Source of the DNA: an uncultured Planctomycetales bacterium
GTDB taxonomy: Bacteria; Omnitrophota; Gorgyraeia; Gygaellales; Profunditerraquicolaceae
Reading direction: 5' to 3'
DNA: 35,070 bases
Assembly (NCBI GenBank): GCA_964362795.1
Contig: CAYIFW010000004.1
Span: 1 to 35,070 of the forward strand
The position numbers and the translations under genes were made by a program. Within the stretch, counting starts at the first letter, position 1, and each line of letters starts with the position of its first letter. Below are positions 1 to 15,288 of this stretch, piece by piece. Below the pieces are notes generated by a model. That model was given only the letters and a program-made list of their open reading frames with translations, was not told the DNA's origin and made no database searches.

Positions 1-62
1 ATTTGAACCCGTGTCGAGAGCTTGAAAAGCTCTTGTCCTGGACCAGGCTAGACGATGGGGTC
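1..62 (-). tRNA. tRNA-Glu(TTC), 3' end truncated by window edge
   Basis: Minus strand reads GACCCCATCGTCTAGCCTGGTCCAGGACA-AGAGC-TTTTCAA-GCTCT-CGACACGGGTTCAAAT: D arm, 5-bp anticodon stem around TTC, and T-loop GGTTCAAAT. Confidence 0.95.
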
Positions 63-63
63 T

Positions 64-306
64 TTAGCCTTCTATTAACTTCTTAAACTTACTGTTCCCC
101 TTAAAATTTTTTATCTGATTCTCGCGCTTTCGCGCTTCAGTTATTGTAATGAATTCTTCTTTATATACTATTCTAAAGGGGCCTTTATTTTTAGTAGAGC
201 TTACGGCATTACGATTATGTTCTTTTAATCTTCTCTCTAAATCTTTACAACTTCCTATATAATGCTTACCCTGGTCATTTCTCAAAACATATACATAATA
301 TAGCAT
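64..306 (-). CDS. Stand-alone small GIY-YIG nuclease (UPF0213/SLX1-like), 80 aa
   Basis: YYVYVL..HYIGS..DLERRLKEHN motif and C-terminal EARKRENQIK helix with the conserved Glu. Confidence 0.9.
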   Translation of the reverse strand: MLYYVYVLRNDQGKHYIGSCKDLERRLKEHNRNAVSSTKNKGPFRIVYKEEFITITEARKRENQIKNFKGNSKFKKLIEG

Positions 307-310
307 AAAA

Positions 311-407
311 CTTGTCCTGGACCAGGCTTCCCGTTTCTCTGTATTTTATATTTTGGAAACGGGATCCCGCCAGATTTTTAACAGCTAGGCGGGAAGACGA
401 TGGGGTC
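311..407 (-). pseudogene. Duplicated 5' half of tRNA-Glu interrupted by a 66-bp double-hairpin insertion
   Basis: 311-328 is identical to 32-49 and 395-407 is identical to 50-62; 329-394 is extra sequence. Confidence 0.9.
329..394. repeat. Two abutting short palindromic elements
   Basis: TCCCGTTTC(329-337)/GAAACGGGA(356-364) directly followed by TCCCGCC(365-371)/GGCGGGA(388-394). Confidence 0.85.
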
Positions 408-412
408 GAACC

Positions 413-2842
413 TTATTCTTCTTCTGCAATTACCGGAGCAACACAAGATACCCGGTCTTTGTCTTGCAGCTTAATTAAGCGGACGCCTTGTGAGGAGCGT
501 CCGGTCTCGCGGATATCTTTTATCGCGCAGCGCAAGAATATTCCGTTCTGCGTAATGACCATCAACTCATCATTATCATTTACAGTTTTTAGATTTACCG
601 CTTGGCCGTTTTTATCCGTAACTTTAATATTAATCACGCCTTTGCCGCCGCGGCTGGTTAATCGATATTCATCAATGGTCGTGCGTTTGGCAAAACCTAA
701 TTCCGTAACCGTTAAGATAGTCGACACTTTTTGCGGAACCACCATATCAATAACTTCATCTTTTTTAGCCAAAGATATCGCCCGCACGCCATGAGCGCCT
801 CGGCCCATTTCACGCACTTTTTCCTCGGAAAATCTTATTGCCTTGCCCTGCCGGGTGCCAATAAGCAACTCCTGCTTTCCATCGGTCATCTCAACGCCAA
901 TTAAGGCATCCTCTTTATCTAAAGTAATTCCGATAATCCCGCCTTTGCGCGGATTACCATAAGCATCAAGTTTAGTCTTTTTAATTTGTCCCAATTTGGT
1001 TACCATGACCAAATATTTGTCCGCTGAAAACTCTTTTACCGGAATAGTCGAACTAACTTTTGCTGACTGCTCCATCTGTAACAAATTAACAATCGCCTTG
1101 CCTTTAGATATGCGGCTGGCCTGGGGAATTTCATAAACCTTTAACCAATGTACCTGGCCTTTATCCGTAAAAATAAGCAGATAATCTTTGGTGGAAGCCA
1201 CAAAAAGATGTTCACTAAAATCCTCTTCTTTTAATTCCGCGCCCATTGCTCCGGTGCCACCGCGTTTTTGTTTACGATACGAACTTACCGGCAGGCGCTT
1301 AATATAACCCCCGTGACTGATAGTAACCACCACATCCTCATCGGCAATTAAATCCTCAACCTCTAACTCTTCGGCCTCCCCCACAATATCCGTGCGACGA
1401 TTATCTCCGTATTTTTTCTTTAACTCTTCCAGTTCAGTTTTAATAATTGATTCGATCTTTTTAAGGGAAGCCAGGATTGCCCGGCATTCATCAATTTTCT
1501 TTAAAAGTTCGGCATACTCGGCTTCCAGCTTGTCACGCTCAAGCGCGGTTAAGCGCTGCAACTGCATTTCTAAAATTGCCTGAGCCTGAATTTCGGAAAG
1601 CTCAAACTCCTTCATTAAATTTACTTTGGCCACCTCCACGCTTTTAGAGGTTTTAATAACTTTAATAATCCGGTCGATGAACTTCAGCGCGATTTTTAAG
1701 CCTTCCAAAATATGCGCGCGCCTTAAAGCTTTGTCCAATTCAAATTGGGTGCGCCTGCGAATTACTACTTTGCGATGTTCAATATAACAATCCAATACCT
1801 GGCGTAAATTTAAAACTTTCGGCCGGTTATCCACCAGGGCCAACATAATAATACCAAAAGTGTTTTCCAGTTGAGTATGTTTAAAGAGCTGATTTAAAAT
1901 AATTTGAGATTCGACATCGCGCTTAAGTTCAACCACAATGCGCATACCTTCTTTGTCTGACTCATCGCGAATATCAGAAATCCCTTCGATTTTTTTATCA
2001 TCCACTAAAGCGGCAATAGCTTCAATCAGCGCGGATTTTTGTACTTGATACGGAATTTCAGTAAAAATAATTAGATCTTTTCCGTTTTTCTGATGTTCCA
2101 CCGTTGCCCGGGAACGTATTAAGAGTTTACCGCGTCCGGTGGTGTAGGCATCTTTAATCCCGCCCTTGCCGCAAATTAATCCGCCGGTGGGGAAATCCGG
2201 GCCTTTAATATAACGCATCAGATCTTTAATTTCTGCTTCGGGATTTTCCAGGATGTGGATAATCGCATCACAAACTTCATTTAAATTATGCGGAGGAATG
2301 TTGGTGGCCATACCTACGGCAATACCGCTGGAGCCGTTAACTAAAAGATTGGGCAAAGTCGCCGGCAATAACAGAGGCTCCTTTAAAGAAGAATCAAAGT
2401 TGGGCCCATAGTTTACGGTTTCTTTTTCAATATCCCCAAGCATCTCATCGGAAACTGCCGCCAAGCGGGCTTCAGTATAACGCATCGCTGCCGCCGCGTC
2501 CCCATCCACCGAACCAAAATTTCCTTGGCCATCGATCAACGGATAACGTAATGAAAAATCCTGCGCCATTCTTACCAGCGTGTCATAAATCGCCACATCG
2601 CCATGCGGATGGTACTTACCCATGGTTTCGCCGACGATACGGGCGCATTTTTTATAGGGTTTAGAGTGTTCAAGGTTGAGTTCGCGCATCGCATAAAGAA
2701 TCCGGCGGTGCACCGGCTTTAAACCATCGCGGACATCCGGCAGAGCGCGGCCGACAATTACGCTCATGGCATAATTTAGATAAGAGTCTTTAACCTCATC
2801 CTCAATATCAACTTCAATTATTTTTTCATTGCGCGTATACAT
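413..2842 (-). CDS. gyrA: DNA gyrase subunit A
   Basis: [31 protein letters not shown] catalytic Tyr, GyrA-box QKRGGTG and C-terminal pinwheel repeats. Confidence 0.99.
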
Positions 2843-15014: not shown

Positions 15015-15089
15015 GGCGACGTAGCCAAGTGGTAAGGCAGTTCTCTGCAAAAGAACTATTCAGCGGTTCGAATCCGCTCGTCGCCTCCA
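15015..15089 (+). tRNA. tRNA-Cys(GCA)
   Basis: Acceptor GGCGACG/CGTCGCC, anticodon arm GTTCT-CTGCAAA-AGAAC, GGTTCGAAT, U73 and encoded CCA. Confidence 0.98.
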
Positions 15090-15100
15090 TTAAATTTTTC

Positions 15101-15183
15101 GGGCAAGTGGTGGAATGGCATACACGAAGGACTTAAAATCCTTTGGCCGTAAGGTCGTGAGGGTCCGACTCCCTCCTTGCCCA
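15101..15183 (+). tRNA. tRNA-Leu(TAA)
   Basis: Acceptor GGGCAAG/CTTGCCC, AAGGA-CTTAAAA-TCCTT, long variable arm, T-loop TCCGACT, no encoded CCA. Confidence 0.95.
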
Positions 15184-15214
15184 TAAATTTTCGTGAAGCC
15201 AGAAGCAAAATTGA

Positions 15215-15288
15215 GGGCTCATAGCTCAGTTGGTTAGAGCGTTTCCTTGACATGGAAAAGGCCGGGGGTCCGAATCCTCCTGGGCCCA
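15215..15288 (+). tRNA. tRNA-Val(GAC)
   Basis: Acceptor GGGCTCA/TGGGCCC, TTTCC-TTGACAT-GGAAA, T-loop TCCGAAT, no encoded CCA. Confidence 0.95.

What the first reader, a model, noticed from the sequence alone, without database searches (positions are those of the whole stretch)
1..412. Minimal tRNA-targeting GIY-YIG element with a 31-bp duplication of the tRNA-Glu 5' half
Seen, in transcription order (minus strand): gyrA stop, 5 nt, tRNA-Glu nt 1-31 (407-395 plus 328-311), TTTT, GIY-YIG ATG to TAA, 1 nt, then the intact tRNA-Glu starting at 62. The duplication ends two bases into the anticodon stem. The 248 bp between the repeats is almost only the nuclease gene. The dead copy supplies an AGGA SD-like motif 8 nt before the ATG. 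Known: tRNA-targeting islands normally carry integrases and mostly duplicate the 3' end, and GIY-YIG homing endonucleases usually sit in introns or phage. Inference: a self-contained selfish unit that cuts or nicks tRNA genes, inserts while regenerating the tRNA downstream, and is expressed from the host transcript.
Basis: partly seen in the sequence, partly recalled or inferred. Interest (0 to 1): 0.85.

Follow-up and report, generated by a model that had tools for sequence, protein, structure and literature searches.

The report
tRNA-splitting nuclease-and-hairpin cassette
A tiny selfish-looking DNA cassette (a double hairpin plus an 80-residue nuclease gene) sits in the glutamate tRNA gene of an uncultured groundwater bacterium, leaves a dead front piece of the gene behind, keeps a working gene beside it, and recurs at many tRNA genes in several bacterial phyla.

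Summary
On the minus strand the order is: gyrA stop, 5 nt, tRNA-Glu nt 1-13, a 66-bp double hairpin, tRNA nt 14-31, TTTT, an 80-aa GIY-YIG ORF, 1 nt, then the intact tRNA-Glu, which continues on a second contig before glmS.

It is not a misassembly. Contigs from two studies cover window 10-409 with no differences.

Of 28 same-genus tRNA-Glu loci examined, 20 are empty, 3 carry the nuclease gene, and 1 is a nuclease-less scar. The same layout recurs at Glu, Val, Pro, Ser, Arg, Thr and Tyr tRNA genes in records labelled as several phyla. Nuclease clades follow tRNA identity.

It sits at a constant site while the fragment end varies, it resembles the hairpin repeats of the published Ssn nucleases, and it also inserts alone.

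My reading: a homing-type cassette that enters where the hairpin sits and carries a replacement tRNA 5' end. Cutting, copying and expression are inferred, and vertical descent with losses is not excluded.

This scan has noted the same architecture on other genomes. I found no paper describing it.

The parts
413..2842 (-). gyrA (809 aa); its stop at 415-413 lies 5 nt before the displaced tRNA fragment
   Evidence: ORF list. The C-terminal 200 aa are 92.5-97.5% identical in 25 genus loci.
395..407 (-). Displaced tRNA-Glu nt 1-13, at the distance from the gyrA stop where empty-site relatives have the tRNA start
   Evidence: Exact match. Empty sites have the gyrA stop, then 7-18 nt (counted from the GyrA alignment end), then the tRNA.
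365..394 (.). Hairpin 1 of the double-hairpin module (7-bp stem TCCCGCC/GGCGGGA, 16-nt loop)
   Evidence: The stem is conserved and the loop varies among G000, G047, G023 and G011.
329..364 (.). Hairpin 2 of the module (9-bp stem TCCCGTTTC/GAAACGGGA, 18-nt loop)
   Evidence: Nearly the same hairpin occurs in G047 and G023.
311..328 (-). tRNA-Glu nt 14-31, read as a relic tRNA piece carried inside the cassette
   Evidence: Exact match. The equivalent piece ends at nt 21 or 22 in G011, G023 and L098, at nt 31 in G047, and at nt 51 in G039.
64..306 (-). 80-aa single-domain GIY-YIG nuclease gene (stop at 66-64)
   Evidence: PF01541 at 59.7 bits. Y6, Y16, R26, H30 and E62 are invariant in 16 relatives. 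Model pLDDT 93; nearest folds are UPF0213 and Slx1. pN 0.15-0.34 against pS 0.56 to saturation.
1..62 (-). Intact tRNA-Glu(UUC), nt 1-62; nt 8-75 lie on G000:C23 1-68, followed by glmS

Best explanation
Window 63-394 is one copy of a three-part selfish cassette lodged in the tRNA-Glu(UUC) gene between gyrA and glmS of a Candidatus Omnitrophota MAG. Its parts are (i) a double GC hairpin with ends TCCCG...CGGGA, (ii) an 80-aa single-domain GIY-YIG nuclease of the UPF0213/Slx1-like branch, and (iii) a replacement copy of the tRNA 5' end. The cassette entered at the T13|A14 junction at the start of the D loop, exactly where the hairpin now sits. The resident nt 1-13 stayed next to gyrA. The cassette's own nt 1-13, at its 3' end, fused to the resident nt 14-75 and restored a working gene. 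The nt 14-31 behind the hairpin is a relic carried along. Spread would be by a nuclease-made break in an unoccupied tRNA gene, repaired by copying an occupied allele (homing or gene conversion), with tRNA and flanking sequence as homology arms. The hairpin would be the nuclease's handle, as hairpin repeats are for Ssn nucleases, and it also moves on its own. Shown: the anatomy, empty and scar alleles, recurrence at many tRNA genes, a selected ORF, and clean solo hairpin insertions. Inferred: what the nuclease cuts, the copying step, the direction of change (gain versus loss), and expression.
For: (1) Geometry: the upstream fragment starts 5 nt after the gyrA stop, where 20 empty relatives have the tRNA start.
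(2) Other states of the same locus: full cassettes in G047 and G011; nuclease gene plus tRNA in G017; a scar in G023 with fragment, hairpin and about 40 nt of ORF 5' remnant. In the same community, contigs join 62 to 413 (empty, in a relative) and 60 to 314/318 (nuclease-less).
(3) The fragment end varies while the hairpin site is fixed: 13/14 in G000, G047, G011, G023, L098 and L103; 38/39 in L100, L102 and L104; both in G039 and L103.
(4) G011 has two extra tandem units, each made of tRNA 1-13, the hairpin, tRNA 14-22 and the last 33 nt of the ORF. This is what repeated entry at 13/14 would leave.
(5) Recurrence: 14 of 65 GIY-YIG places in 40 relatives have a same-strand tRNA starting -45 to +260 nt from the ORF stop. 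My estimate of chance is about 0.3%, from 28 tRNAs in 1.24 Mb. Nine of the 14 show exact tRNA 5' repeats of 11 nt or more upstream. 19 of 30 loci from named MAGs of several phyla are tRNA-adjacent. Of 33 tRNA-linked loci, 25 have a fragment and 27 have the hairpin module (plus L004 and L036 by eye).
(6) tRNA-linked nucleases cluster: a 23-row clade with SH-aLRT 95, Glu 4 rows (97), Pro 4 rows (100).
(7) The hairpin module inserts alone with clean ends. A 33-bp in-frame insert in an M20 peptidase gene is absent in 6 of 6 aligned relatives, at TT|AA with no target duplication. There is also a 44-nt insert inside the RNase P RNA gene.
(8) Upstream fragments in G011 and G023 carry the GACCCTG allele while their intact tRNAs carry GACCCCA/TGGGGTC, as if the working copy came in from elsewhere.
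Against: No cleavage, binding or transfer has been shown.
Synonymous divergence of the nuclease gene between G000 and G047 (pS 0.56) equals that of the adjacent gyrA (0.56). For G000-G011 it is 0.79 versus 0.70. Old vertical inheritance with repeated precise loss through the direct repeats therefore fits the genus data as well as gain does.
The label 'occupied' needs at least 3 changes on the flank tree but is not clustered more than shuffles (91 of 500 as low).
The restored tRNA should still be a target, and no immunity mechanism is visible.
Only one copy of the small nuclease gene exists in this MAG.
The hairpin also sits at non-tRNA sites, so it could be an independent repeat that merely colonises dead DNA.
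Six of 33 tRNA-linked loci show no hairpin module, and 8 of 33 show no fragment of 11 nt or more.
51 of 65 small GIY-YIG genes in relatives are not next to a tRNA.
Confidence: 0.55

Rival explanations
1. This is a resident (domesticated) Ssn-type nuclease and hairpin pair, not a mobile cassette. The nuclease acts on hairpins in single-stranded DNA. The tRNA fragments and tandem units are by-products of nuclease-made breaks repaired by slipped or unequal recombination (segmental amplification), and the pattern among relatives reflects differential loss.
For: Ssn nucleases are single-domain GIY-YIG proteins of about 94 aa, flanked by hairpin repeats with the core ATTCCCGCG..GCGGGAAT (PMC11893778, sections 6, 7, 10 and passages). 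The hairpin here has a TTCCCGCC..GGCGGGAA-type core. A true NTS-flanked 97-aa homologue exists in the same genus (L086). Phage SegB, a GIY-YIG enzyme, cuts inside tRNA genes and drives tandem amplification of tRNA plus truncated segB (PMC13096335, abstract and sections 9, 10), which resembles the G011 stack. The nuclease pS is about equal to the gyrA pS.
Against: The same ordered layout (fragment, hairpin, ORF, intact tRNA) recurs at at least seven tRNA types and in MAGs labelled as several phyla, which needs repeated site-specific establishment. The window protein is not in the NTS-flanked clade (separate clade at 99) and is only 40% identical to L086 over 68 aa. The allele mismatch between displaced and working copies in G011 and G023 is not expected from local duplication.
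Confidence: 0.27
2. One reading: the nuclease unit inserted at nt 31/32 and made a 31-bp duplication of the tRNA 5' half. The 66-bp hairpin is a later, unrelated insertion into the dead copy.
For: The 13-nt and 18-nt pieces are exact copies of nt 1-31. The hairpin family does insert elsewhere on its own.
Against: The fragment end differs among related cassettes (nt 21, 22, 31, 51), while the hairpin is present in 27 of 33 loci and at the same site within a lineage whose synonymous sites are saturated. Chance secondary hits would not give that.
Confidence: 0.1
3. This is an assembly artefact, or the interrupted copy is a functional split or intron-bearing tRNA.
For: The contig ends inside the tRNA.
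Against: Contigs from two studies span window 10-409 with 0 differences, and G047 has the same layout. The break is a k=55 graph joint at tRNA nt 8, the point where many relatives' alleles differ (nt 6-7). The upstream copy has no 3' half, so it cannot make a tRNA. Rfam finds only the intact tRNA in 1-1000 at E up to 1.
Confidence: 0.02

Closest known systems
Ssn family of site-specific single-stranded-DNA nucleases with NTS/SRM hairpin repeats (Chenal et al. 2025, PMC11893778; sections 6, 7, 10 and passages read)
   Same: A single-domain GIY-YIG protein of under 100 aa. The gene lies next to GC-stem palindromic repeats with a TTCCCGC..GCGGGAA-type core that are also dispersed in the genome. 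The authors themselves note that the layout looks like an insertion sequence.
   Different: Here the hairpins come as an adjacent pair with long loops, on the 5' side only. They lie inside a duplicated tRNA 5' fragment, and the gene abuts an intact tRNA. The word 'tRNA' occurs 0 times in that paper's main text; its supplements were not visible to me. The window protein falls outside the NTS-flanked clade of its own genus. Assignment to cd10448 could not be tested.
Phage T4/T6 SegB, a free-standing GIY-YIG homing endonuclease in the tRNA gene cluster (PMC2330249, abstract; PMC13096335, abstract and sections 9, 10)
   Same: A GIY-YIG gene beside tRNA genes. It cuts within tRNA genes, is inherited together with neighbouring tRNA genes, and drives tandem amplification of tRNA plus a truncated nuclease gene, which is similar to the G011 stack.
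   Different: SegB belongs to phages and, as far as I recall, is larger and carries a DNA-binding part. It recognises the T-loop motif. No hairpin module or split-and-restored tRNA gene is described in the parts I read. Here the protein is 80 aa, chromosomal, and the junction is in the D or anticodon loop.
UPF0213 proteins BH0048 and EF2693 (PDB 1zg2, 1ywl) and Slx1 structure-specific nucleases
   Same: These are the best sequence and fold matches: E 2.5e-8 and 5.9e-5; Foldseek E 2.1e-5 and 8.1e-4, with Slx1 TM 0.65-0.71.
   Different: No function, hairpin partner or tRNA link came with those entries. Slx1 works with Slx4 on branched DNA in eukaryotes.
Integrase-borne genomic islands at tRNA genes
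   Same: They target a tRNA gene and carry a replacement piece, so the gene stays intact.
   Different: Islands are kilobases long, encode a tyrosine or serine recombinase and duplicate the 3' end (established knowledge, recalled). This unit is about 330 bp, has no recombinase and duplicates the 5' end.

Membership tests
GIY-YIG nuclease superfamily (PF01541) | Match to the family profile above its curated cut-off | tested here: met
   59.7 bits against a cut-off of 22.6, E 3.5e-16, residues 3-71.
GIY-YIG nuclease superfamily (PF01541) | Catalytic Tyr, Tyr, Arg, His and Glu residues and the three-strand/helix fold | tested here: met
   Y6, Y16, R26, H30 and E62 are invariant in 16 sequences. 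The assignment of these residues as catalytic is recalled. The model has pLDDT 93 and matches GIY-YIG structures.
Ssn family (Chenal 2025) | Single-domain GIY-YIG protein of about 94 aa | tested here: met
   80 aa, and the whole length lies in the domain.
Ssn family (Chenal 2025) | Assignment to CDD cd10448 and to the Ssn clade | tested here: inconclusive
   No CDD tool was available. In the tree, the window protein is separate from the NTS-flanked in-genus proteins (their clade has support 99). It is 40% identical to L086 over 68 aa.
Ssn family (Chenal 2025) | Gene flanked by SRM hairpin repeats that are also dispersed in the genome | tested here: inconclusive
   A hairpin pair with a similar core lies 5' of the gene only. 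Six copies occur in the MAG. The paper's degenerate SRM pattern was not available to me.
Ssn family (Chenal 2025) | Cuts single-stranded DNA next to the hairpin, and does not cut duplex DNA or RNA | not testable with these tools
   This needs purified protein.
Free-standing homing endonuclease gene | Presence/absence polymorphism at the same locus among relatives | tested here: met
   Of 28 loci: 20 empty, 3 with the gene, 1 scar. A contig of a co-occurring relative shows an empty site.
Free-standing homing endonuclease gene | The enzyme cuts the unoccupied allele near the insertion point | not testable with these tools
Free-standing homing endonuclease gene | Evidence of horizontal gain (element younger than its host locus) | tested here: not met
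   Nuclease pS is 0.56 against gyrA pS 0.56 for G000-G047, and 0.79 against 0.70 for G000-G011.
Integrase-type tRNA-targeting island | Encodes a site-specific recombinase and duplicates the tRNA 3' end | tested here: not met
   The only ORF in the unit is the 80-aa GIY-YIG gene, and the duplicated part is nt 1-31.

The most novel reading that the evidence does not exclude
The nuclease and the double hairpin form a new kind of DNA transposon. An Ssn-like GIY-YIG enzyme binds the hairpins in single-stranded DNA and cuts at their borders on each strand. It thereby moves either the bare hairpin pair (into coding genes, RNase P RNA and tRNA genes) or the full cassette. In tRNA genes the cassette survives because it carries a built-in repair piece. 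That would make GIY-YIG a transposase-type catalytic domain in bacteria, aimed at structured-RNA genes.
Probability: 0.2. Interest if true: 0.85.

Novelty: new variant of a known kind. Interest (0 to 1): 0.62.

Why it matters
If the reading holds, the smallest stand-alone GIY-YIG proteins are the engines of about 330-bp selfish cassettes. These proteins are a very common group and mostly unexplained outside Neisseria. The cassettes invade essential tRNA genes without killing them, and they leave stacks of dead tRNA pieces and hairpins. That would explain pseudo-tRNA debris and hairpin inserts around tRNA genes in small-genome bacteria. It would link the Ssn nuclease/hairpin system to a mobility function that its discoverers only suspected. 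It would also offer a compact, possibly structure-guided nuclease with a definable target. For annotation, the dead fragments and hairpins can break assemblies and mislead tRNA finders.

Tried and rejected
Promoters: a sigma-70 consensus scan of 1-700 found no site upstream of the ORF on its strand. It gave 2 hits against 1.3 expected, one on the opposite strand and one inside the ORF, so it says nothing about expression.

RNA run X15: its contigs cover only the tRNA (with other organisms' flanks) and gyrA 1013-1380, and none lies on the nuclease gene. This is no evidence either way.

NCBIfam gave only sub-threshold matches (group I intron endonuclease at 31.5 bits against a cut-off of 56). 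PHROGs gave generic homing-endonuclease families.

tRNA acceptor allele: all 5 occupied or scar genomes have GACCCCA, against 5 of 20 empty ones. This is suggestive of co-conversion, but the genomes are related and L098 carries a cassette with the other allele, so I do not rely on it.

First fuzzy-regex script: it timed out and was replaced by BLAST.

Literature: eight full-text searches found no description of a GIY-YIG plus hairpin cassette in split tRNA genes. Supplements of the Ssn and SegB papers could not be seen and may hold gene-neighbourhood tables that bear on this.

Full report
WHAT IS THERE. Read on the minus strand, the window starts its story at the end of gyrA (stop at 415-413). 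After 5 nt come tRNA-Glu(UUC) nt 1-13 (407-395), a 66-bp insert (394-329), and tRNA nt 14-31 (328-311). Then follow TTTT, an 80-codon ORF (306-64), one base, and the tRNA-Glu gene from nt 1 (window 62) to the window edge. The window is the start of contig C4 of a 1.24-Mb MAG that is 89.8% complete. The tRNA continues on contig C23 through a 55-base overlap and is followed directly by glmS. Thirty-five pairs of contig ends in this MAG share 55-mers, so the break is an assembly-graph joint. It falls at tRNA nt 8, just after the two acceptor-stem positions at which relatives differ.

The ORF is a GIY-YIG domain and nothing else. PF01541 matches at E 3.5e-16 over residues 3-71. Y6, Y16, R26, H30 and E62 are invariant among 16 relatives. 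The model has pLDDT 93. The nearest solved relatives are two UPF0213 proteins, then Slx1, then the I-TevI catalytic domain.

The 66 bp that interrupts the dead copy is two adjacent hairpins, TCCCGCC(16 nt)GGCGGGA and TCCCGTTTC(18 nt)GAAACGGGA. The DNA fold is -19.1 kcal/mol with z -3.5.

IS IT REAL. Contigs built independently from runs of two studies cover window 10-409 with no differences (records 6 and 14). A second genome of the genus (G047) has the same order of parts at the same locus. Misassembly is excluded for practical purposes.

EMPTY, OCCUPIED AND DECAYED SITES. I fetched the tRNA-Glu/glmS locus from the genus: 48 of 48 genomes matched, and 29 non-own loci were delivered. One locus lacks the tRNA because the contig starts in glmS. 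The other 28 fall into these groups:
- 20 have the gyrA stop followed within 7-18 nt of the GyrA alignment end by the tRNA. These are empty sites.
- G047 and G011 carry fragment, hairpin and nuclease gene.
- G017 has nuclease gene plus tRNA at a contig start.
- G023 has fragment 1-13, the hairpin pair, nt 14-21 and about 40 nt that resemble the ORF start, but no ORF. This is a scar.
- G020 and G004 have unrelated inserts of 271-314 bp.
- G061 and G062 break in the tRNA, as G000 does.

The other 18 genomes of the genus were not examined at this junction. In the sampled community itself, one contig joins window 62 to 413 with 4 letters between. This is an empty site in a relative, with 7 differences in 53 nt of gyrA. 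Two other contigs join 60 to 314 or 318 through 34-40 other letters, which are nuclease-less forms.

RECURRENCE. In 40 relatives (24 of the genus, 16 of the order), 65 places encode a small GIY-YIG protein, and I fetched all of them. Fourteen have a same-strand tRNA gene starting between -45 and +260 nt of the ORF stop: Glu, Val, Pro, Ser and Arg. From 28 tRNAs in 1.24 Mb, I estimate about 0.3% by chance. Nine of the 14 have an exact copy, 11 nt or longer, of the tRNA 5' part upstream of the ORF; one more cannot be judged because it lies at a contig start. Several ORFs run into the tRNA and take their stop codon from it.

The other 51 places are not next to a tRNA. They include a conserved 79-81-aa group. 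They also include a 96-97-aa group whose members L086 and L081 are flanked by repeats almost identical to the Neisseria NTS.

A search of one genome per species with the window protein gave 30 loci. Their record titles name Candidatus Omnitrophota (the closest), Planctomycetales, Gammaproteobacteria, Sphingobacteriales, Patescibacteria groups, the PVC group and Deltaproteobacteria. One of the 30 duplicates a locus I already had. Nineteen of the 30 have a tRNA directly after the ORF: Glu, Tyr, Thr, Ser and Pro.

Across 33 distinct tRNA-linked loci, 25 have an upstream tRNA fragment of 11 nt or more. In 15 of the 33, the fragment is interrupted by a strongly folding insert. Ten more have such an insert between fragment and ATG (RNA-parameter dG -22 to -47). 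L004 and L036 have it by eye. That makes 27 of 33 with the hairpin module. Most inserts have the same form, TCCCGCC-loop-GGCGGGA followed by (T/C)CCCGCC-loop-GGCGGG(A/G), even where the nucleases are only 35-50% identical.

TREES AND SELECTION. In a tree of 58 small GIY-YIG proteins (91 columns, quick search), the tRNA-linked ones concentrate in one 23-row clade (SH-aLRT 95). The four Glu-linked rows form a clade (97), four Pro-linked rows another (100), and two Ser(GGA) rows another (98). The NTS-flanked proteins are a separate clade (99). So nuclease lineage follows tRNA identity.

Among ten Glu-linked genes, pN is 0.15-0.34 while pS runs from 0.56 to saturation, and dN/dS is at most 0.26 where it can be computed. 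The protein is therefore under purifying selection.

There is a caution. pS of the nuclease gene between G000 and G047 (0.56) equals pS of the neighbouring gyrA (0.56). For G000-G011 the values are 0.79 and 0.70, and for G047-G011 they are 0.74 and 0.46. On a gyrA+glmS tree, G000 pairs with empty G022 (97) and G011 pairs with empty G054 (100). Occupancy needs at least 3 changes, but is no more clustered than shuffled labels. Within this genus I cannot tell gains from losses. Deletion between the direct repeats would restore an empty site exactly.

WHERE DID IT ENTER. Comparison argues for the hairpin site instead. The piece of tRNA behind the hairpin ends at nt 21 or 22 (G011, G023, L098), nt 31 (G000, G047) or nt 51 (G039). 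The hairpin, by contrast, stays at 13/14 in all of these. A second hairpin site inside the anticodon (linear 38/39) is used in L100, L102 and L104, and both sites are used in G039 and L103. Val uses 17/18 and Pro uses the D-arm/anticodon-stem hinge.

A cassette of the form [hairpin, leftover tRNA piece, nuclease gene, tRNA 1..x] inserted at x/x+1 explains the layout. It also explains the G011 stack, which is two extra units of tRNA 1-13, hairpin, 14-22 and the last 33 nt of the ORF. These are what repeated entry of a nuclease-less derivative at 13/14 would leave, with the oldest and most diverged copy next to gyrA.

In G011 and G023 the displaced fragment has the GACCCTG allele. The working tRNA has GACCCCA paired with TGGGGTC. 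This fits import of the working copy, though the sister of G011 (G054, empty) also has the GACCCCA allele.

THE HAIRPIN ALSO MOVES ALONE. The MAG has six copies of the module:
- One is a 33-bp in-frame insert in an M20 peptidase gene. Six of six aligned relatives lack it and read TTTT|AAAA at that spot, so the ends are exact and there is no target duplication.
- One is a 44-nt insert inside the RNase P RNA gene (175 bits).
- One forms the last codons of a deaminase ORF, 29 nt before tRNA-Ser.
- In tRNA-Glu it sits at T13|A14, again a T|A junction.

The only other PF01541 match in the MAG lies in a frame of at least 426 aa. So the window gene is the only small GIY-YIG gene found in the 90% of the genome that is assembled.

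COMPARISON WITH WHAT IS KNOWN. Chenal et al. 2025 (PMC11893778; sections 6, 7, 10 and passages read) describe Ssn. These are single-domain GIY-YIG proteins of about 94 aa that bind a hairpin repeat (core ATTCCCGCG..GCGGGAAT) and cut single-stranded DNA beside it. In their data, 71% of homologues have such repeats nearby. They remark that repeat-gene-repeat looks like an insertion sequence. The nuclease/hairpin pairing here is therefore of a known kind.

Phage SegB (PMC2330249, abstract; PMC13096335, abstract and sections 9, 10) is a GIY-YIG homing enzyme. It cuts inside tRNA genes, is inherited with them, and drives tandem amplification of tRNA plus truncated segB.

I did not find described the chromosomal cassette that splits a tRNA gene at a hairpin and restores it with its own 5' copy, in eight full-text searches. 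Earlier agents of this scan reported the same architecture in at least 12 other genomes, mostly Patescibacteria. Those notes gave me the Ssn and SegB leads. I tested the architecture on my own loci, and their agreement is not independent evidence.

VERDICT. I rate it a new variant of known kinds (Ssn-type nuclease/hairpin pair; free-standing GIY-YIG homing gene beside tRNA genes), with interest 0.62.

Noticed in passing
G000:C11 6549-6605 (locus L128 about 450-506): A copy of the double-hairpin module lies inside the RNase P RNA gene as a 44-nt insertion at model positions 245/246. The gene still scores 175 bits.
   Followed up: partly
G000:C5 8234-8266 (locus L129 435-467): A 33-bp double hairpin is inserted in frame (11 codons) in an M20/M25/M40 peptidase ORF at TT|AA, with no target duplication. 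It is absent in 6 of 6 aligned genus relatives. Matches in other relatives are also about 33 nt shorter than the query.
   Followed up: yes
G000:C43 4711-4772 (locus L130): A double hairpin forms the 3' end of a cytidine/adenosine-deaminase-family ORF and lies 29 nt upstream of tRNA-Ser(GCU).
   Followed up: partly
G000:C42 about 290-432: A second scar in the same MAG. tRNA-Gln(CUG) is preceded by its own nt 1-12, a 20-nt GC hairpin, nt 13-27 and a 19-nt spacer, with no nuclease gene.
   Followed up: partly
Loci L036, L037, L038, L039, L040, L041, L045, L047, L048 (downstream of tRNA-Glu): Many genus members, including some with an empty 5' side, carry partial 3' copies after the intact tRNA-Glu. 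These consist of about nt 50-58, a hairpin in the T loop, then nt 59-75. In G011 the copy is nt 13-38 plus a hairpin. L100 and L104 have nt 20-38, a hairpin and nt 39-75 downstream. This looks like a mirror-image process on the 3' side.
   Followed up: partly
L086 860-1420 (G011:C40): A 97-aa GIY-YIG gene is flanked on both sides by repeats nearly identical to the published Neisseria NTS consensus. This is an Ssn-type locus in the same Omnitrophota genus, in a different clade from the window protein.
   Followed up: partly
L043 (G020) and L050 (G004), between gyrA and tRNA-Glu: Unrelated hairpin-rich inserts of 271-314 bp occupy the same intergenic spot, without a tRNA fragment or a nuclease gene.
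   Followed up: no
tRNA-Glu of 28 genus loci: Two compensated acceptor-stem alleles (GACCCCA/TGGGGTC and GACCCTG/CAGGGTC) are scattered over the flank tree. All 5 occupied or scar genomes have the first allele, against 5 of 20 empty ones.
   Followed up: partly
window 15015-15288: An ordinary tRNA cluster, Cys(GCA)-Leu(UAA)-Val(GAC), on the plus strand.
   Followed up: no
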